Positions 2,860 to 7,230 of a stretch of 11,267 nucleotides of DNA are shown one piece after another; position 1 is the first letter of the stretch; every line of letters begins with the position of its first letter. The position numbers and the translations under genes were made by a program. Origin of the DNA: a virus; IMG/VR virus record IMGVR_UViG_3300020577_012183; one strand, given 5' to 3'. The notes below the pieces were generated by a model. That model saw only the letters and a program-made list of their open reading frames with translations. It did no database searches and had not been told where the DNA came from.

Positions 2860-3792
2860 ATGTGCGTTTTGCAGATATTTATCTGCATGGCAAATGCATT
2901 TATAGTAGACTCTTCAGGTGGAATTTCTGGTTCATTGACTAACCTCGTTGATGGTACTTCGTACCTCGTTGCAGGTGATGGTATCTTGATCACGAGCCAA
3001 TCAAATGGTTCGGTAGTTGTAGCTTCAGCAGTTTCACCAACTGGTGTAAGCATGTTGTCTGCATCATATACATCTAGCGGCACATGGGTGTCACCTGTGA
3101 CTGGTATCGTTTTCATTCAAGGTTGTGGTGGCGGCGGAGGCGGGGGAGGCGGTTATACTGCTAGTTCACAACCGGGAGGTGGCGGAGGCGGAGGCGCTTT
3201 AGAATCAACTGTTCCTGTATTCGTGACATCAGGTAGTTCATACGCAATCGGTATTGGAGCTGGCGGCGCTGGAAGCAACGCAGGTACTCCCGCAAACAAA
3301 GGTTTGGTCGGTGGTGATACCACATTCGGATCTCTTGCTACGTTCGTCGGAGCTAGCGGTGGAGGTGGAGGAAATAACACTTCACTAGTCACGATCGGCG
3401 GTGGATTATGTTCAAAACAATCTGGGGCAACTTCTGTCACGACTGCAACTAACAAGAGTCTCTTGAATGGTTATTCATTACCTGACGCAGGATGTGTTCC
3501 TTCCCTTGCTGCAGGTGGTTGGGTTCACAGTTCTGGAGGAGGACAACCTGGCATGATGAACTGTATTGGCGGCTTCGCAGGCGGCGCGGGTACAGATTCA
3601 GTCACTAGTGGTGGTGGAGGCGGAGGCGCGGGACCTCGAGGTTCAGGTGGTGCTGGTGCCTCTGCTAATGGCACAGGTTCTTCTGCTTCAGCAAATACTG
3701 GAGCGGGCGGCGGTGGAGGCGGAGGTGGAACCTCTGCTGGTGCTGGTGGTGCTGGTGGATCAGGTTATCTGACTGTCATTTACCTGGGTTGA
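2860..3792 (+). CDS. Gly/Ser/Thr-rich repeat protein (310 aa), possible structural/fibre-like protein
   Basis: Long ORF with poly-Gly runs (GCGGGGGGGGGY, PGGGGGGGA, GAGGGGGGGGTSAGAGGAGGSG) and Ser/Thr-rich stretches. The antisense frames are the mirror-image Pro-rich ORFs. Confidence 0.55.
   Translation: MCVLQIFICMANAFIVDSSGGISGSLTNLVDGTSYLVAGDGILITSQSNGSVVVASAVSPTGVSMLSASYTSSGTWVSPVTGIVFIQGCGGGGGGGGGYTASSQPGGGGGGGALESTVPVFVTSGSSYAIGIGAGGAGSNAGTPANKGLVGGDTTFGSLATFVGASGGGGGNNTSLVTIGGGLCSKQSGATSVTTATNKSLLNGYSLPDAGCVPSLAAGGWVHSSGGGQPGMMNCIGGFAGGAGTDSVTSGGGGGGAGPRGSGGAGASANGTGSSASANTGAGGGGGGGGTSAGAGGAGGSGYLTVIYLG
3124..3199. repeat. GGN trinucleotide tracts (further tracts 3357-3374, 3601-3633, 3697-3760)
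   Basis: Runs of ggtggcggcggaggcgggggaggcggt and ggaggtggcggaggcggaggc are visible. These are simple-sequence tracts inside the Gly-rich CDS. Confidence 0.6.
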
Positions 3793-3804
3793 TATAATTC
3801 GTGG

Positions 3805-4632
3805 ATGGCGGACAAAAAACCTTTTGCTGCATTCACGATTGTTCGAAACGAACCATTCTTCTTACCAATCTGGTGTTCGTATTATGTACGAGCATTTGGT
3901 GAAGAGAACATTTACGTTCTAGACAATTCGACCTCTGATGCGAGCATTGAACGTGTCAGAGGTCGATGGCCTAAAATCAACATCAAATCAGTTCCGTCTG
4001 CACAAGCAAACGCTTGGGCATGGACAACAGACGTCGTTAAGTCATTTCAGGCATCAGCGCTGAAGGCTCACGACGTCGTTGTCTATGCTGATGCCGATGA
4101 ATTCTTGATTCCTAAATTTACTGATTTACACAGTTACTGTGAGATATTCCGAAGTTCAGATCGTCAATACGTTCGTGCTTGTGGGTGGGGAGTGATTCAA
4201 AACATTGATAAAGAACATCAAGTTGATGTCACCGGTCCTGTACTTCAAGATCGCAGAGAGGCGTGGAGAACGCCTAGATACGATAAGACATTGATATCGA
4301 AAATCCCATTACCATGGGCTAAAGGCTTACACACCATCTACGATGCCAGTGGCCACAAGATGTCAGATGATCCTGTCGATCACGACATGTCACTTGTTCA
4401 TTTACGCGATGTCGATTTAACGTTGTTACACCAGAGATCTCTTGAACGATCTAAAATGGTCCCATATCTTGATCAATACGGTTGTGCTAGTCTGTATCAC
4501 GGATCAACAAACATTGAGCACTTGAAGACATATTTCAGGACTCGAGTGGCGCCTTGGAATCCCAAGACAATTGAAGAATTCACCAACGAAGTTCAACTAG
4601 TTCCTGAACACTGGCGAAGATCAATTGTGTGA
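3805..4632 (+). CDS. GT-A fold glycosyltransferase (Glyco_tranf_2_4 / GT92-like pattern)
   Basis: FTIVRNEPFFLPIWCSYYVRAFGEENIYVLDNSTSD and VVVYADADEFLIP (DxD) match the ivkNE...G.d.iyvyDn.StD...DaDEfl consensus recalled for this family. Confidence 0.65.
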   Translation: MADKKPFAAFTIVRNEPFFLPIWCSYYVRAFGEENIYVLDNSTSDASIERVRGRWPKINIKSVPSAQANAWAWTTDVVKSFQASALKAHDVVVYADADEFLIPKFTDLHSYCEIFRSSDRQYVRACGWGVIQNIDKEHQVDVTGPVLQDRREAWRTPRYDKTLISKIPLPWAKGLHTIYDASGHKMSDDPVDHDMSLVHLRDVDLTLLHQRSLERSKMVPYLDQYGCASLYHGSTNIEHLKTYFRTRVAPWNPKTIEEFTNEVQLVPEHWRRSIV

Positions 4633-4640
4633 TTAATACG

Positions 4641-4961
4641 TCACAGTCGTTCAACAACGGTATCTGAGGACGCGACCCAAACAGGTCGACCTTCCCACAA
4701 CACCAGATAAAATTCATTGGCCGGTGGTGAGAAACCATACGGCCCACGTCCTTTTTTCCTCATGGCTGCATTGAATGCATCAGGCTGGCTGTTGATGAAG
4801 AGGGCGTGAGTTTCATTTGGAATATCACAAATGACAATATCCAATTCTTCTCCCAACAACGCATTGAATGACCTCGGAACGTTCCTCGCCTTGATGCTTG
4901 AACCTTCACGACGTTCAGTCAATTTGACCATGGTTCCGGGTTCAAGTTTCGTCGTCATCAT
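4641..4961 (-). CDS. Small paralog A (106 aa), array family
   Basis: N-terminus KLEPGTMVKL and a later ..EFYLVLWEG.. motif. It overlaps B's 3' end by 20 nt. Confidence 0.45.
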   Translation of the reverse strand: MMTTKLEPGTMVKLTERREGSSIKARNVPRSFNALLGEELDIVICDIPNETHALFINSQPDAFNAAMRKKGRGPYGFSPPANEFYLVLWEGRPVWVASSDTVVERL

Positions 4962-5325
4962 TCACCGTCACGTCTCGTTCTGTCGGCATGCTCGTGATGT
5001 TGGCACCCTTCGATTTCGCCCATTCCTTGATGAAGTTATCGAATGTCAGGCGAATGATTCCCATGTCTAACAGGCTGAGATTTTTCAAGTGATTGCTAGA
5101 GATGGTGAATGATGCAGCCTCGACGACGGCGCCGACGGGATTCTCAATGTCATATGCGGGTCTCAACCGATACTTGGGTTCTTGGTGTATGTCGGTTGCC
5201 GCCGCAGGAATGACCTGCACGACCTGATAGATAAGGCGCCGTTGAAAAGGTGAGTACTCAGTCACCTTGCCTGTCCACATCACAATGTCACCAACGTTTA
5301 GCTTTTCAAGTGGCTTCGGTGTCAC
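4942..5325 (-). CDS. Small paralog B (127 aa; GTG start with GGTGA SD)
   Basis: PLEKLNVGDIVMW... and the C-terminal LKNLSLLDMGII parallel paralog C. Confidence 0.55.
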   Translation of the reverse strand: MTPKPLEKLNVGDIVMWTGKVTEYSPFQRRLIYQVVQVIPAAATDIHQEPKYRLRPAYDIENPVGAVVEAASFTISSNHLKNLSLLDMGIIRLTFDNFIKEWAKSKGANITSMPTERDVTVNDDDET

Positions 5326-5388
5326 TGTGGGTCACCCATATTGAGAAGGTGGAATCTATCAATGGTCATGTGCAGGTTATATCGTGTG

Positions 5389-5823
5389 TCACTCGTGGGC
5401 ATTATCAACCTGTTGAGCAGTCTCTGAGACCATCCCACCCTTGACGGCCAGATCGCGAATTATGTTACCTAATTCAGCATACTTCGTGGCGATATCGAGG
5501 AGTTCAATCTTTTTCAAATTACGTAATTCATCATGATAAATGATCAATGTTGAATCTGCACCGCCTGGTGCCTTTCCTTTGCGTGTTGGAAAGAAAGTGA
5601 AAATCGGCCGAATTCGCAAATAACCACGAACTTCCATGGGCTTCATTTTCTTTCCCGACACTGGATGAAAAACTGTTTCATATATGCTAAGACGTTTTTC
5701 CTTAGCTATGGGCGATTCATAATTCATCGTAATCTGGTAGATGACACCACCCGTTGATTCCTTGTCAGAAGCGAAGGTGACGATATCACCAATTTTCAAA
5801 CCAATTTTTTCAAGTGTATTCAT
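5389..5823 (-). CDS. Small paralog C (144 aa)
   Basis: MNTLEKIGLKIGDIVTFASDKESTGGVIYQI, with a C-terminal IELLDIATKYAELGNIIRD. GGAAGA SD upstream. ATGA overlap with D at 5820-5823. Confidence 0.6.
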   Translation of the reverse strand: MNTLEKIGLKIGDIVTFASDKESTGGVIYQITMNYESPIAKEKRLSIYETVFHPVSGKKMKPMEVRGYLRIRPIFTFFPTRKGKAPGGADSTLIIYHDELRNLKKIELLDIATKYAELGNIIRDLAVKGGMVSETAQQVDNAHE

Positions 5824-6551
5824 GACTCATCATCTTCCGGATCTGAGGGTTGATGGGATGGGCTCGTCGTCACTGTTTTCGATGTCGGTATCTGCCACTT
5901 TTGCGAAAGAGGATTTGCTACTGACAATTGTGTTTGAGCTTGTTGTTGTTGTATCACGCTGCGTATCAATTCTGCTTGTCTCGCTTTCATGCGTGATTTC
6001 TTTGTGTTTTCGTCTTCGACTACGGGTGGAGCGAATATATCCTTGACGATACGTCTGATACCAAATGACCAATTCTTGAATGATTTTACTTTCGACCAAC
6101 ACTTGCGAAATGTCGAAGACAAACATCTGTAGGATCTCCAAAACATTTTAACCGGCCAATGACCTGTGTTGCATCGCTCTGTTAATTTGACGTCTGGATA
6201 CTGATAATCCATATGAAAGATCAGACCTTGAGGAAGTTTCATGGGTTGAACAGTTACCATTTGTTGAGCGAGGGCTGGATAATTGACTCGCCTCATGATG
6301 GGAAACACGAAGTTGCTGAAGATGTCTTGACTGTAGGGTTCAACCGACCACAGAATGGTCAGCTGTTCATCGTTGACTGCGATGACAATTCCTTGACCTC
6401 CGTCCTTGATGTGCTTTACCTGATCACCAGGCTTGAGGATGTCGATACCACCTTCACGAATAAAAGGCCATGGGTCGGCATAATCCGTCGGAGGAAGCGT
6501 GGATGGATATTTGTCGCTGTACGTGCGATCGTATGTTTTAAGGCTGCTCAT
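5820..6551 (-). CDS. Paralog D (243 aa, double length; PGD-LWS unit plus long low-complexity tail)
   Basis: ..RPF-like lead-in DPWPFIREGGIDILKPGDQVKHIKDGGQGIVIAVNDEQLTILWSVEP. ATGA overlap with E at 6548-6551. The 3' half also has an alternative open frame, 5830..6141. Confidence 0.5.
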   Translation of the reverse strand: MSSLKTYDRTYSDKYPSTLPPTDYADPWPFIREGGIDILKPGDQVKHIKDGGQGIVIAVNDEQLTILWSVEPYSQDIFSNFVFPIMRRVNYPALAQQMVTVQPMKLPQGLIFHMDYQYPDVKLTERCNTGHWPVKMFWRSYRCLSSTFRKCWSKVKSFKNWSFGIRRIVKDIFAPPVVEDENTKKSRMKARQAELIRSVIQQQQAQTQLSVANPLSQKWQIPTSKTVTTSPSHQPSDPEDDES

Positions 6552-6850
6552 TTACGTCCACACTTGCAGTTTGATTCTCGACACCAACGTTGACCCGTGA
6601 CTGTACACAAACGTTCAACTGAATTCTTAGGAAGATAAAAATCTTCTTCTATAGACATCGGATTCCAACGAGGTTCGATAGACCACAACACCAAGAAGTC
6701 AGATTTGTTACGAGCTATGAGAACTCCAAACCCACCTTCTCTTTCATGTGTCACCAAATCTCCTGGTCTTTTTCGATGAAATGGGCGTTTCCATTTTTCA
6801 ATGCCAACGGTATGGATGTTCCCAGAATCTGGGTGCAATCGTAAGGTCAT
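6548..6850 (-). CDS. Paralog E (100 aa)
   Basis: KRPFHRKRPGDLVTHEREGGFGVLIARNKSDFLVLWSIEP. ATGA overlaps on both sides. Confidence 0.6.
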   Translation of the reverse strand: MTLRLHPDSGNIHTVGIEKWKRPFHRKRPGDLVTHEREGGFGVLIARNKSDFLVLWSIEPRWNPMSIEEDFYLPKNSVERLCTVTGQRWCRESNCKCGRK

Positions 6851-7230
6851 GATTTTTCATCATTTTCAGGAAGATCAAGCAGTTTGATCGTTGAATAAAA
6901 ATCTGTTTGAACAGGTTTTTCAGCATAACTCGGACGTGTCATGATGCCCTTCCGAGGCATGAAATCAGATGCATCGAACACTACGGGCTCTTTCAAAACT
7001 GGAATGTATGGTGTATCAACAAAACCAGCGTCGGGCATCTCCGGAGACGTCGACCACAAGACTGAGACTTCTTCGTCGCTAATTGCAACGATCATCCCAA
7101 CGCCAGTTCCAGCAATAGTCGTGACAGAGTCACCAGGTGCAAACGGGCGGGCTTCATTCCCACGAAGACTGGATTCTGCCCACGTGATGCTATGTGCCCC
7201 CGCACTTTTTCTATTGTACGTCTTAAGCAT
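6847..7230 (-). CDS. Paralog F (127 aa from ATG 7230; track start 7233 is TTG)
   Basis: MLKTYNRK...RPFAPGDSVTTIAGTGVGMIVAISDEEVSVLWSTSP...DASDFMPRKGIMTRPSY. Confidence 0.6.
   Translation of the reverse strand: MLKTYNRKSAGAHSITWAESSLRGNEARPFAPGDSVTTIAGTGVGMIVAISDEEVSVLWSTSPEMPDAGFVDTPYIPVLKEPVVFDASDFMPRKGIMTRPSYAEKPVQTDFYSTIKLLDLPENDEKS

What the first reader, a model, noticed from the sequence alone, without database searches (positions are those of the whole stretch)
2860..4632. Gly/Ser/Thr-rich repeat protein immediately followed by a GT-A glycosyltransferase; GGN tracts as potential slippage hotspots
- The 310-aa protein has poly-Gly runs and Ser/Thr-rich segments (..SQSNGSVVVASAVSPTGVSMLSASYTSSGTWVSPVTG..).
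- It resembles glycine-rich fibre or collagen-like structural proteins.
- The next gene, 13 nt downstream, is a DxD glycosyltransferase, so it is a plausible substrate-modifier pair (glycosylated fibre or decoration protein).
- The underlying GGN trinucleotide tracts (3124-3199, 3601-3633, 3697-3760) could expand or contract and cause length variation.
Basis: partly seen in the sequence, partly recalled or inferred. Interest (0 to 1): 0.5.

Follow-up and report, generated by a model that had tools for sequence, protein, structure and literature searches.

The report
Phage polyglycine fibre gene with glycosyltransferase
The glycine-rich gene encodes an ordinary, already-known type of phage fibre tip (a TNF-like plus polyglycine-helix domain, not collagen). 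Its glycine codon tracts are structural and stable rather than slippage-prone, and the glycosyltransferase next door is a conserved neighbour whose target is still unknown.

Summary
Both genes are real. The Gly-rich ORF most likely starts at ATG 2887 (301 aa), not 2860.

**The fibre**
- It matches Pfam PF21722 (Gly_rich_2) over the full profile.
- Its predicted fold matches the cyanophage Pam3 tail fibre, Bxb1 tail-tip proteins and the ALK/LTK TNF-like/glycine-rich domain.
- It is therefore a polyglycine-II fibre tip. It is not collagen, because there is no Gly-X-Y periodicity.
- The first ~47 aa are one copy of a common phage-fibre shaft repeat.

**The GGN tracts**
- They use mixed codons; the longest perfect trinucleotide repeat is 3.3 units.
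- They are identical in four assemblies from other sequencing runs.
- They keep their lengths in ~60%-identical orthologues even though about 70% of the Gly codons have changed.
- They are conserved structural elements, not slippage hotspots.

**The glycosyltransferase**
- ORF 3805-4632 is a confident GT-A enzyme (PF13704; D96-A-D98-E99, with D98/E99 invariant and D96 nearly so; pLDDT 93).
- In 8 of 10 distinct related loci a fibre gene with the same N-terminal module lies within 2.2 kb of the GT. Orientation, flanking genes and even the tip domain differ between these loci.
- Functional coupling is plausible. Glycosylation of the fibre is inferred only.

Overall this is a new member of a known kind, in an uncultured jumbo-phage-like lineage.

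The parts
2871..2886 (+). Palindromic element GCAGATATTTATCTGC (core GATATTTATC at 2874-2883) directly abutting the start codon. There is no Shine-Dalgarno sequence between it and the ATG.
   Evidence: A GATAnnTATC or ATACCTAC core lies 3-6 nt upstream of the fibre ATG in window, L001, L002, L004, L009, L011, L020 and L021, and 15 nt upstream in L023. It also lies 3 nt upstream of the free-standing GT gene in L009. It is rare elsewhere in 184 kb of loci. A hairpin is predicted in all six sequences folded, with different stem sequences.
2860..2886 (+). Spurious N-terminal extension of the mechanical ORF ('MCVLQIFIC'); not part of the protein.
   Evidence: P0001 and all homologues start at the equivalent of ATG 2887. 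The extension coincides with the conserved upstream DNA motif.
2887..3792 (+). Fibre gene: 301 aa plus stop codon. Pfam PF21722 Gly_rich_2.
   Evidence: Pfam E=5e-13 over profile positions 7-224 of 226. 48 homologues. AF2 model with pLDDT 71 and pTM 0.67. Foldseek: Pam3 fibre 7ypx_A E=1.8e-6, Bxb1 tail tip 9d93_Qa E=4.5e-5, ALK/LTK glycine-rich domains E about 0.02. 240 BFVD viral proteins at E<=1e-3.
2887..3027 (+). N-terminal module (aa 1-47): one copy of a ~40-aa phage-fibre shaft repeat, 'G(I/L)SGSLTxLxDGTSYLxAGxxIxIxSQSNGSVxV'. Presumed anchoring or trimerisation module.
   Evidence: phmmer of aa 1-50 against 1.84 billion representatives gave 799 proteins at E<=1e-3, with up to 22 copies per protein in proteins of up to 3011 aa (sequences). 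No dedicated Pfam model. The module is shared by fibres with two different tip domains.
3058..3372 (+). TNF-like beta-sandwich plus first glycine-rich motifs (aa 58-162). Conserved core.
   Evidence: Beta strands with pLDDT 78-97. Mean column conservation 0.59. Invariant G81-83, G86, G100, G124, G126-127, G139, G142.
3373..3597 (+). Variable segment (aa 163-237). Presumed distal, specificity-determining loops.
   Evidence: Lowest conservation (0.31) and many indels. pLDDT below 50 for most of it: residues 167-208 and 214-237. Analogous to the less conserved distal tip described for Pam3 gp24 (PMC9608196).
3598..3789 (+). C-terminal glycine-rich motifs and closing beta strand (aa 238-301; ...GGSGYLTVIYLG).
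   Evidence: pLDDT 83-97. Conservation 0.61. Invariant G247, G249, G252.
3127..3153 (+). Gly9 tract, mixed codons: GGT GGC GGC GGA GGC GGG GGA GGC GGT.
   Evidence: Length is 9/9/9 in window, L011 and L001.
3175..3195 (+). Gly7 tract, mixed codons.
   Evidence: Length is 7/6/7 in the orthologues.
3358..3372 (+). Gly5 tract.
   Evidence: Length is 5/5/5.
3610..3627 (+). Gly6 tract.
3706..3729 (+). Gly8 tract.
   Evidence: Length is 8/8/6.
3805..4632 (+). GT-A fold glycosyltransferase, 275 aa. DxD(E) = D96-A-D98-E99 at nt 4090-4101; H176 and H199 invariant.
   Evidence: Pfam PF13704, 42.7 bits against a cut-off of 27.5. 29 homologues. Alignment invariants. AF2 pLDDT 93, pTM 0.91. Foldseek: SunS/ThuS, SpsA, TarP/TarS and other GT-A enzymes.
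3153..3455 (-). Antisense Pro-rich ORF (100 aa). Artefact of the GGN tracts, not a gene.
   Evidence: All homology and conservation evidence is on the + strand.

Best explanation
**The fibre.** ORF 2887-3792 encodes a small virion fibre or receptor-binding protein of an uncultured jumbo-phage-like virus.
- The N-terminal ~47 residues are one unit of a widespread phage-fibre shaft repeat. This is presumably the module that trimerises or docks onto the virion or onto a longer fibre (inferred).
- The rest is a TNF-like beta-sandwich plus a glycine-rich domain. There the GGGGxGG-type motifs form extended polyglycine-II-like strands packed into a hydrogen-bonded lattice. This is shown for the Pam3 gp24 and ALK homologues and predicted here.
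- The poorly conserved segment aa 163-237 forms the distal, specificity-determining loops (inferred).
- The GGN tracts are therefore load-bearing structural elements under purifying selection, not contingency repeats.

**The glycosyltransferase.** ORF 3805-4632, 12 nt downstream, is probably co-transcribed. It is a soluble metal-dependent GT-A glycosyltransferase that has stayed linked to fibre genes carrying this N-terminal module through inversions, changes of flanking genes and a tip-domain swap.

**My estimates for what the GT does**

| Reading | Probability |
|---|---|
| The pair is a functional cassette in which the GT glycosylates the Ser/Thr-rich fibre, or the virion structure it belongs to, before assembly | about 0.35 |
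| The GT alters the host glycan that the fibre recognises | about 0.2 |
| The GT belongs to a broader phage glycan pathway with another target | about 0.25 |
| The remainder, including no functional link | about 0.2 |

The confidence of 0.6 refers to the composite: a fibre-tip protein with structural glycine tracts plus a genuinely linked GT-A enzyme. The fibre identity alone is about 0.85.
For: **Fibre identity**
- PF21722 full-length hit.
- Weak sequence match to the Pam3 fibre.
- Foldseek probability 1.0 to the Pam3 fibre and Bxb1 tail-tip chains, followed by ALK/LTK glycine-rich domains.
- 240 viral structural matches, including proteins named tail fibre, baseplate component or minor tail protein.
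- The N-terminal module is a repeat unit found in 799 cluster representatives.

**Structural role of the Gly tracts**
- Gly columns are the most conserved: 0.70 against 0.39 for other columns.
- 13 invariant Gly.
- 65-72% of conserved Gly positions use a different codon in orthologues, while tract lengths are retained.
- High-pLDDT segments with no alpha or beta assignment.

**GT**
-.

**Linkage**
- The GT orthologue in L001 is 51% identical and convergent.
- L009, L010 and L023 are convergent. L011 and L020 are tandem with one gene in between. In L021 the fibre is 2.2 kb upstream.
- Flanking genes range from DNA polymerase III to nucleotide metabolism to capsid-fragment paralogues.
- The tip domain differs (Gly_rich_2 type against 'YGDGSDG' type) while the N-terminal module and the GT persist.
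- In L009 the same GATAnnTATC element precedes both the fibre and the GT start codons.

**Glycan genes near the GT in relatives**
- UDP-galactopyranose mutase and two more GT-like genes in L001.
- An epimerase/dehydratase in L009.
- A dehydratase, an aminotransferase and two GT1 genes in L013.

**Precedent**
- Phage-encoded virion glycosylation in mycobacteriophages, as cited in PMC12619734.
Against: - There is no direct evidence of glycosylation or of any GT-fibre contact.
- The pairing is absent in 2 of 10 loci with close GT homologues: L013/L015, where the GT sits inside a sugar-biosynthesis cluster, and L022.
- The pairing is also absent in the four distinct loci with 33%-identical GTs (L016-L019). 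The more distant Gly_rich_2 fibres in L002 and L004 have no GT neighbour.
- The GT tree largely tracks the arrangement, so shared descent explains part of the linkage.
- PF13704 members are reported in lipooligosaccharide and polysaccharide loci. Fold similarity to the peptide glycosyltransferases SunS/ThuS is generic, with TM about 0.4.
- Whether the fibre sits on the tail or on the head is not established. In L004 the gene follows the Gp23-like capsid gene.
- The fibre model is only moderately confident (pLDDT 71), and about a quarter of it is below 50.
- The Pam3-type helical docking domain and the Tfa-like chaperone gene are not present here.
Confidence: 0.6

Rival explanations
1. Receptor-masking pair. 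The GT does not touch the fibre. It modifies the host envelope glycan that the fibre recognises, on a cytoplasmic precursor or polymer, as the soluble phage enzyme TarP does with wall teichoic acid. Infected cells or debris then stop adsorbing phage. This would be analogous in logic to the T5 llp gene lying next to its receptor-binding-protein gene (own knowledge).
For: - Conserved adjacency of the GT and a receptor-binding-type fibre through rearrangements.
- TarP and TarS are among the fold matches, E about 5e-5 to 1e-4.
- PF13704 occurs in lipooligosaccharide and polysaccharide loci.
- PMC12619734 lists host serotype modification as a known role of phage glycosyltransferases.
Against: - The GT stays while the tip domain, and hence presumably the receptor, changes between the Gly_rich_2 and 'YGDGSDG' types.
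- No membrane segment, flippase or Gtr-like partner was seen.
- Serotype-converting glycosyltransferases are typical of temperate phages. These contigs look like large lytic-type phages with GroEL, DNA polymerase III and nucleotide-metabolism genes.
Confidence: 0.2
2. The GT is one step of a general phage-encoded glycan pathway. Its target is something else, such as the capsid or other virion proteins, a secreted or cell-associated glycan, or hypermodified DNA. Its position next to the fibre gene is mainly inherited gene order.
For: - In L013 the 55%-identical GT lies among two GT1 genes, a Polysacc_synt_2 dehydratase and a DegT aminotransferase, with no fibre within 6 kb.
- In L022 and L023 it lies beside PNKP, thymidylate kinase, dUTPase and DNA methylase genes.
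- The GT tree tracks locus arrangement.
- Mycobacteriophage virion glycosylation targets capsid and tail-tube subunits, and DNA glycosylation is also a known role of phage glycosyltransferases (PMC12619734).
Against: - 8 of 10 loci keep a fibre gene within 2.2 kb although the flanking genes are unrelated.
- In L009 the fibre-specific upstream motif also precedes the GT.
- The known T4 DNA glucosyltransferases are GT-B-type enzymes (own knowledge), whereas this one is GT-A.
Confidence: 0.25
3. One reading: a collagen-like or triple-helical glycine fibre whose GGN tracts expand and contract by slipped-strand mispairing, giving length variation.
For: - High Gly content and dispersed GGN tracts.
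- Gly-run lengths differ by a few residues among distant homologues of 45-50% identity.
- Some BFVD matches carry 'collagen' names.
- Two relatives have single-base frameshifts in this gene, L001 in a G5 run and L020 in the N-terminal module. Assembly error cannot be excluded for either.
Against: - No Gly-X-Y periodicity, no Pfam Collagen hit and few Pro.
- The fold matches are TNF-like/polyglycine domains.
- Codons in the tracts are mixed, the longest perfect trinucleotide repeat is 3.3 units, and TRF scores are 32-43, below the tool's default threshold of 50.
- The DNA is 100% identical in four other assemblies.
- Tract lengths are conserved at about 60% identity.
- Neither frameshift in the relatives lies in a GGN repeat array.
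Confidence: 0.03

Closest known systems
Cyanophage Pam3 tail fibre gp24 (PDB 7YPX, 7YFW; PMC9608196)
   Same: - Best structural match, Foldseek E=1.8e-6, probability 1.0.
- The only PDB sequence hit.
- Similar size, 250-280 aa against 301 aa.
- TNF-like domain plus a glycine-rich domain with GGGGxGG motifs and a less conserved distal part.
   Different: - Pam3 gp24 docks through an N-terminal alpha-helical bundle. Here the N-terminus is a beta-type fibre-shaft repeat.
- Pam3 has a Tfa-like chaperone gene (gp25) whose product is needed for fibre assembly. Here the downstream gene is a glycosyltransferase and no Tfa-like gene was detected.
- Identity is only about 21-23%.
Mycobacteriophage Bxb1 tail-tip polyglycine-rich-domain proteins (PDB 9D93 chains Qa/Qb)
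   Same: Second-best fold match, E=4.5e-5, probability 1.0. In Bxb1, polyglycine-rich domains are associated with the central fibre protein (PMC13252515).
   Different: A siphophage of an actinobacterial host with about 22% identity. The primary Bxb1 paper could not be read here.
Salmonella phage S16 gp38 adhesin (polyglycine-rich domain; Dunne et al. 2018, as cited in PMC9608196 and PMC13252515)
   Same: A small adhesin with glycine-rich motifs forming a polyglycine lattice and variable distal loops for receptor recognition. It caps the end of a longer fibre.
   Different: S16 gp38 was not among the top 50 Foldseek PDB matches listed here. According to PMC9608196 its middle domain is a beta-helix rather than TNF-like, and its lattice has three layers.
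ALK/LTK extracellular TNF-like/glycine-rich (TG) domain (PDB 7MZY, 7LIR, 7NX0, 7NX1)
   Same: The same combined TNF-like plus polyglycine fold, Foldseek E about 0.02-0.15.
   Different: A metazoan receptor-kinase ectodomain that binds cytokines. Similarity is weak (TM about 0.25). No functional relationship is implied.
GT-A (GT2-like) glycosyltransferases: SunS/ThuS glycocin S-glycosyltransferases, SpsA, phage-encoded TarP
   Same: GT-A Rossmann-like fold, a DxD metal site and a soluble enzyme. SunS and ThuS modify peptides. TarP is an example of a phage-encoded enzyme.
   Different: 9-14% identity and TM about 0.4, so this is fold-level resemblance only. There is no PDB sequence match even with a profile. 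Donor and acceptor are unknown.
Mycobacteriophage virion glycosylation (Freeman et al. 2023, as cited in PMC12619734)
   Same: Phage-encoded glycosyltransferases that decorate virion proteins. This is the functional precedent for the favoured reading.
   Different: The targets there are the C-termini of the capsid and tail-tube subunits, not a fibre tip. No homology between those enzymes and this GT was tested here.

Membership tests
Pfam PF21722 Gly_rich_2 / phage TNF-like + polyglycine-rich fibre-tip domain | Profile match above the curated threshold over most of the model | tested here: met
   50 bits against a cut-off of 24.3; residues 75-307 match profile positions 7-224 of 226. Most homologues carry PF21722.
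Pfam PF21722 Gly_rich_2 / phage TNF-like + polyglycine-rich fibre-tip domain | Several conserved glycine-rich motifs (GGGGxGG type) separated by variable segments | tested here: met
   Five runs of at least 5 Gly. 13 invariant Gly in 19 sequences. Gly-column conservation 0.70 against 0.39 for other columns, and the variable segment 163-237 scores 0.31.
Pfam PF21722 Gly_rich_2 / phage TNF-like + polyglycine-rich fibre-tip domain | Three-dimensional TNF-like sandwich plus polyglycine-II lattice | tested here: met
   Met at the level of prediction only. The AF2 model matches the Pam3 fibre, the Bxb1 tail tip and ALK/LTK TG domains. There is no experimental structure.
Pfam PF21722 Gly_rich_2 / phage TNF-like + polyglycine-rich fibre-tip domain | Presence in the virion as a trimeric fibre and binding to a host receptor | not testable with these tools
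   Needs virion proteomics, cryo-EM or adsorption assays. The host is unknown.
Pam3-type fibre plus Tfa-like chaperone module | Tfa-like chaperone gene next to the fibre gene | tested here: not met
   The downstream gene is a glycosyltransferase. Neighbouring ORFs have no Tfa hit in Pfam or PHROGs. Only the fibre itself has a weak PHROG 863 'tail fiber assembly' match, E=5e-4.
Collagen-like triple-helix proteins | Long uninterrupted Gly-X-Y repeats, usually Pro-rich, and a Pfam Collagen match | tested here: not met
   The longest Gly-every-third-residue run is 5 and lies inside poly-G runs. The protein has 9 Pro in 301 aa and no Collagen hit.
Simple-sequence contingency (slippage) loci | Perfect tandem repeats of many units | tested here: not met
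   The longest perfect repeats are 3.3 units of 3 nt, 2.7 units of 6 nt and 2.3 units of 9 nt. The longest homopolymer is G5. TRF scores are 32-43, below the tool's default threshold of 50.
Simple-sequence contingency (slippage) loci | Repeat-number polymorphism among closely related genomes | tested here: not met
   The other assemblies are identical across the gene; the only difference is one mismatch in 11,267 nt, in L005. Tract lengths are conserved in orthologues of about 60% identity. Read-level variation was not testable.
GT-A fold glycosyltransferases (Pfam PF13704 Glyco_tranf_2_4, GT2-like) | Profile match above threshold and a GT-A alpha/beta/alpha fold | tested here: met
   42.7 bits against a cut-off of 27.5. 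AF2 pLDDT 93, pTM 0.91. 115 PDB matches at E<=1e-3; the listed matches are mostly GT-A enzymes, with some nucleotidyltransferases among them.
GT-A fold glycosyltransferases (Pfam PF13704 Glyco_tranf_2_4, GT2-like) | DxD metal/nucleotide-sugar binding motif conserved | tested here: met
   D96-A-D98-E99. D98 and E99 are invariant and D96 is at least 90% conserved in 26 sequences. H176 and H199 are also invariant.
GT-A fold glycosyltransferases (Pfam PF13704 Glyco_tranf_2_4, GT2-like) | Glycosyl-transfer activity, donor sugar and acceptor | not testable with these tools
   Requires biochemistry.
Virus-encoded virion-protein glycosylation systems | Glycan covalently attached to a virion protein by the virus-encoded enzyme | not testable with these tools
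   Only indirect evidence is available: conserved gene linkage, a shared upstream motif in L009 and sugar-nucleotide genes near the GT in relatives.

The most novel reading that the evidence does not exclude
The fibre gene and the GT-A gene form a mobile, co-regulated host-recognition cassette in a lineage of uncultured jumbo phages.
- The GT glycosylates the fibre itself, possibly on the conserved Ser/Thr-rich N-terminal shaft-repeat module, since the GT is retained when the tip domain is swapped.
- Expression of both genes is governed by a dedicated palindromic element (GATAnnTATC or ATACCTAC) that abuts the start codon in place of a Shine-Dalgarno sequence.

As far as I know, this would be the first dedicated glycosylation system for a phage receptor-binding fibre.
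Probability: 0.25. Interest if true: 0.55.

Novelty: new member of a known kind. Interest (0 to 1): 0.3.

Why it matters
Taken alone, the gene is one more member of a very common and already structurally characterised class of phage fibre tips, so the main result is a clarification. The glycine tracts are structural polyglycine motifs. They are neither collagen nor contingency repeats, and the annotation should say so.

Two things have modest wider value.

1. **The fibre-GT linkage.** It survives inversions, new flanking genes and a tip-domain swap. That gives a concrete, cheap experiment: co-express the two genes and look for a mass shift. The result would show whether large environmental phages glycosylate their receptor-binding fibres. 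If they do, it would affect host-range prediction, immune or defence evasion, and fibre engineering.
2. **The upstream element.** The short palindromic element abutting the start codon of every fibre orthologue is a candidate lineage-specific expression signal that could help annotate these unculturable genomes.

Tried and rejected
**Searches that gave nothing**
- Megablast of the whole window, and tblastn of both proteins, against 50,697 GenBank phage records gave no match. The lineage has no cultured relative in that collection. The low-complexity filter may also have hidden the Gly-rich part.
- NCBIfam gave nothing for the fibre, the GT or the vault-like protein.
- PDB sequence searches for the GT, with a single sequence and with a 26-sequence profile, gave only chance hits: cytochrome oxidase 7B and an EGFR tail. 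Only fold comparison placed the GT.
The exhaustive phmmer search then found 799 proteins.
- No paper mentions PF21722. The PF13704 papers only show how broad that family is.
- The Bxb1 structure paper and the current version of the Jabs preprint could not be read.

**Ideas rejected**
- The collagen hypothesis was rejected on periodicity and fold.
- The slippage hypothesis was rejected on codon heterogeneity, identical assemblies and conserved tract lengths.
- The idea that the 2860 ATG is the start was rejected, even though 'MCVLQIFIC' is also present in L011. Those 27 nt are a conserved DNA motif, and other orthologues have no in-frame upstream ATG.
- I looked for a second glycosyltransferase in the ~300-aa gene that lies between the fibre and the GT in L011 and L020. 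It has no Pfam match even at E<=5.
- Sigma-70 promoter and intrinsic terminator scans around the pair were at background level.

**Limits**


Full report
**1. What is in the sequence**

The window carries a + strand ORF at 2860..3792 (310 aa), followed 12 nt later by a + strand ORF at 3805..4632 (275 aa).
- The database holds the first product as a 301-aa protein (P0001) starting at the second ATG, 2887.
- Every homologue starts at the equivalent position, 'MTNTF...'.
- The 27 nt between the two ATGs belong to a conserved non-coding motif. The gene is therefore 2887..3792.
- The 301-aa protein is 29.9% Gly, 14.3% Ser and 8.6% Thr. It has Gly runs of 9, 7, 5, 6 and 8 residues at nt 3127-3153, 3175-3195, 3358-3372, 3610-3627 and 3706-3729.
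- The Pro-rich ORF on the opposite strand (3153..3455) is the mirror image of the GGN tracts and has no support.

**2. Source of the window**

- The window is 100% identical to three Logan assembly contigs and differs by one mismatch from a fourth. The four contigs come from four different sequencing runs (L005-L008).
- It has no relative among 50,697 GenBank phage records.
- The 30-kb contig and its relatives carry GroEL, IF-1/eIF-1A-like, calcineurin-like phosphoesterase (Metallophos), AAA ATPase, DNA polymerase III alpha, nucleotide-metabolism genes and Gp23-type capsid sequences. Relatives lie on contigs of up to 340-360 kb.
- This is an uncultured jumbo-phage-like lineage.

**3. The Gly-rich protein is a polyglycine fibre tip**

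- Pfam PF21722 (Gly_rich_2) matches at 50 bits (cut-off 24.3) over essentially the whole profile.
- The only PDB sequence hit, though weak, is the cyanophage Pam3 fibre.
- An AlphaFold2 model built from 19 homologues has pLDDT 71 and pTM 0.67. Its core blocks score 78-97, and large parts of them are neither helix nor strand.
- That model matches the Pam3 fibre (E=1.8e-6), Bxb1 tail-tip chains (4.5e-5) and then a series of ALK/LTK TNF-like/glycine-rich domains.
- It also matches 240 predicted viral structures. Some are named tail fibre, baseplate component, minor tail protein or simply 'glycine-rich domain-containing protein'.
- The Pam3 paper describes exactly this architecture: a docking domain, a TNF-like domain, and a glycine-rich domain whose GGGGxGG motifs run parallel and form a hydrogen-bonded lattice with a less conserved distal tip that is proposed to bind the receptor (PMC9608196).
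- The same pattern appears here. Gly columns are the most conserved (0.70 against 0.39), 13 glycines are invariant, and the segment aa 163-237 is poorly conserved, rich in indels and of low confidence.
- It is not collagen: no Gly-X-Y periodicity, no Collagen hit and only 9 prolines.

**4. The N-terminal module**

- Residues 1-47 (GISGSLTNLVDGTSYLVAGDGILITSQSNGSVVV) are highly conserved among the close homologues.
- The same module precedes a different C-terminal domain, a 'YGDGSDG...' glycine-rich type, in L009, L010, L023 and P0027.
- An exhaustive phmmer search with residues 1-50 found 799 cluster representatives. In many of them the unit is repeated up to 22 times, in proteins of up to 3011 aa.
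- It is therefore a generic phage-fibre shaft repeat. There is no Pfam model for it, only weak partial CBM_X2 matches.
- One copy at the N-terminus of a small tip protein suggests an anchoring or trimerising role, or stacking onto a longer fibre built of the same unit. This is inference.

**5. The GGN tracts are not slippage hotspots**

- Synonymous codons are mixed within every tract. The longest perfect repeats are 3.3 units of 3 nt and 2.7 units of 6 nt. TRF finds only arrays scoring 32-43, below the tool's default threshold of 50.
- The four other assemblies are identical across the gene.
- In orthologues of 60-62% identity (L011, and L001 after repair), 68-72% of the conserved Gly positions use a different codon, about the same as other conserved residues. 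Yet the tract lengths are 9/9/9, 7/6/7, 5/5/5 and 8/8/6.
- That is the signature of purifying selection on the protein, not of a mutable repeat.
- Two relatives do have single-base frameshifts in this gene. L001 has an extra G in a G-run, and removing it restores the conserved C-terminus. L020 has lost one base in the N-terminal module.
- Neither frameshift lies in a GGN array, and assembly error cannot be excluded.

**6. The glycosyltransferase**

- ORF 3805-4632 matches PF13704 above threshold and has 29 homologues.
- It keeps D98-E99 invariant, together with H176 and H199, and D96 is at least 90% conserved.
- It folds with pLDDT 93 into a GT-A domain.
- The best PDB matches are the peptide S-glycosyltransferases SunS and ThuS (E=4e-7 to 1e-5). 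SpsA, TarP/TarS, GlcAT-P and xylosyltransferase follow, all at TM about 0.3-0.4 and 9-14% identity.
- This shows the fold but says nothing about the acceptor.
The opposite is not shown either, because PF13704 members are reported in lipooligosaccharide and polysaccharide contexts.

**7. Is the pair a unit?**

I examined ten distinct loci that carry GT homologues of at least 50% identity.

| Locus | Fibre gene relative to the GT | Tip domain |
|---|---|---|
| window | tandem, 12 nt gap | Gly_rich_2 |
| L011, L020 | tandem, one unknown ~300-aa gene in between | Gly_rich_2 |
| L021 | 2.2 kb upstream, three genes in between | Gly_rich_2 |
| L001 | convergent | Gly_rich_2 |
| L009, L010, L023 | convergent | 'YGDGSDG' type |
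| L013/L015, L022 | none within 6 kb | - |

Sources.

- The flanking genes differ completely. They include DNA polymerase III and zinc-finger genes, PNKP with thymidylate kinase and DNA methylases, peptidase M24, and capsid-fragment paralogues.
- The exceptions are L013/L015 and L022. In L013 the GT sits between two GT1 genes, next to a Polysacc_synt_2 dehydratase and a DegT aminotransferase.
- Distant GTs (33% identity) and distant Gly_rich_2 fibres (L002, L004) are not paired.
- An NJ tree of the GTs mostly follows the arrangement. It places the Gly_rich_2-tipped L001 in the same clade as the 'YGDGSDG'-tipped L009. The pairing therefore survived a tip swap.
- Sugar-nucleotide enzymes occur near the pair in L001 (UDP-galactopyranose mutase and two further GT-like genes) and in L009 (epimerase/dehydratase).

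**8. A conserved element at the start codon**

- Immediately upstream of the fibre ATG, every orthologous locus has a GATAnnTATC palindrome or an ATACCTAC core. It lies 3-6 nt before the ATG, or 15 nt in L023. It is usually embedded in a 5-7 bp inverted repeat whose arms differ between loci, and there is no Shine-Dalgarno sequence.
- The motif is rare elsewhere in 184 kb of collected loci.
- In L009, the one locus where the GT stands alone behind a 180-nt spacer, the motif also sits 3 nt before the GT start codon.
- This suggests co-regulation. In the window the 12-nt spacing suggests co-transcription.
- The nature of the element (promoter, operator or mRNA hairpin) is unknown.

**9. Mechanism and probabilities**

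- Shown or strongly supported: a fibre-tip protein of the TNF-like/polyglycine class, structural glycine tracts, a GT-A enzyme, and recurrent linkage.
- Inferred: the target of the GT.
- My estimates are about 0.35 for glycosylation of the fibre or the virion structure it belongs to, about 0.2 for modification of the host glycan that the fibre recognises, about 0.25 for a general glycan pathway with another target, and the rest for no functional link.
- PMC12619734 summarises all three known roles of phage glycosyltransferases: DNA modification, host serotype modification and virion glycosylation.

**10. Verdict**

- This is a new member of a known kind in an uncultured phage lineage.
- Interest is modest. 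The fibre-GT cassette and its start-codon element are the only parts worth an experiment.

Noticed in passing
window 2871-2886; L001 9981-10000; L002 2009-2028; L004 5435-5454; L009 7963-7978(-) and 5988-5997(+); L011 4151-4166; L020 3357-3366; L021 3009-3018; L023 about 7842-7849(-): A conserved GATAnnTATC or ATACCTAC element lies 3-6 nt upstream of the fibre start codon (15 nt in L023). It is usually inside a hairpin whose stem sequence differs between loci, and no Shine-Dalgarno sequence is present. In L009 it also precedes the GT start codon. It could be a lineage-specific promoter, operator or translational hairpin.
   Followed up: partly
window 9334-11211 (-), running off the window end; 886 aa in L005 14448-16906: A large protein with Major Vault Protein shoulder (E=1.3e-30), SPFH/Band 7 and vault-repeat domains sits in a phage-like genome. 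A Band_7 protein occupies the same relative position in L011. One literature search found no report of a vault-like protein in a jumbo phage.
   Followed up: partly
window 4641-9245 (-): About eleven back-to-back small ORFs of 66-243 aa. At least five share a motif, 'PGD.V.H...G.G..I......VLWS..P', and so form a paralogous family. ORF 5820-6551 matches the N-terminal 45 positions of the Pfam Gp23 major-capsid model (E=2.5e-7) and PHROG 138. ORF 6847-7233 weakly matches the C-terminal part of the Gp23 model. A similar array lies next to the GT in L011. Function is unknown.
   Followed up: partly
L001 10752-10768; L020 3420-3440: The fibre orthologues in two independent assemblies carry single-base frameshifts. 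L001 has an extra G in a G-run; deleting one G restores the conserved C-terminus ...GGSGYMTIVWVA. L020 has lost one base in 'CTG(G)TGGAC' within the N-terminal module. These could be assembly errors, population heterogeneity or real pseudogenes. This is unresolved.
   Followed up: partly
L011 5105-6004 (+); L020 4291-5196 (+): A conserved gene of about 300 aa with no Pfam match even at E<=5 is inserted between the fibre gene and the GT in two relatives. It is absent from the window. It could be a further partner of the cassette.
   Followed up: partly
L013 4214-10704: In a GC-rich relative on a 142-kb contig, the GT homologue carries a ~95-aa N-terminal extension. It lies in a sugar cluster with two GT1 genes, a Polysacc_synt_2 4,6-dehydratase-type gene and a DegT/DnrJ/EryC1 aminotransferase. 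This suggests phage-encoded synthesis of an amino-deoxy sugar.
   Followed up: partly
L001 9039-13822: The fibre gene in this relative is surrounded by three GT-like genes: a PF13704-like paralogue upstream, the orthologous GT, and a Glycos_transf_2-like gene. A UDP-galactopyranose mutase (GLF) gene is also present, which hints at a galactofuranose-containing glycan.
   Followed up: partly
L009 3843-5225 and 7984-10797 (-): DNA polymerase III alpha appears split or duplicated, with a weak intein-splicing hit, directly beside the GT-fibre pair.
   Followed up: no
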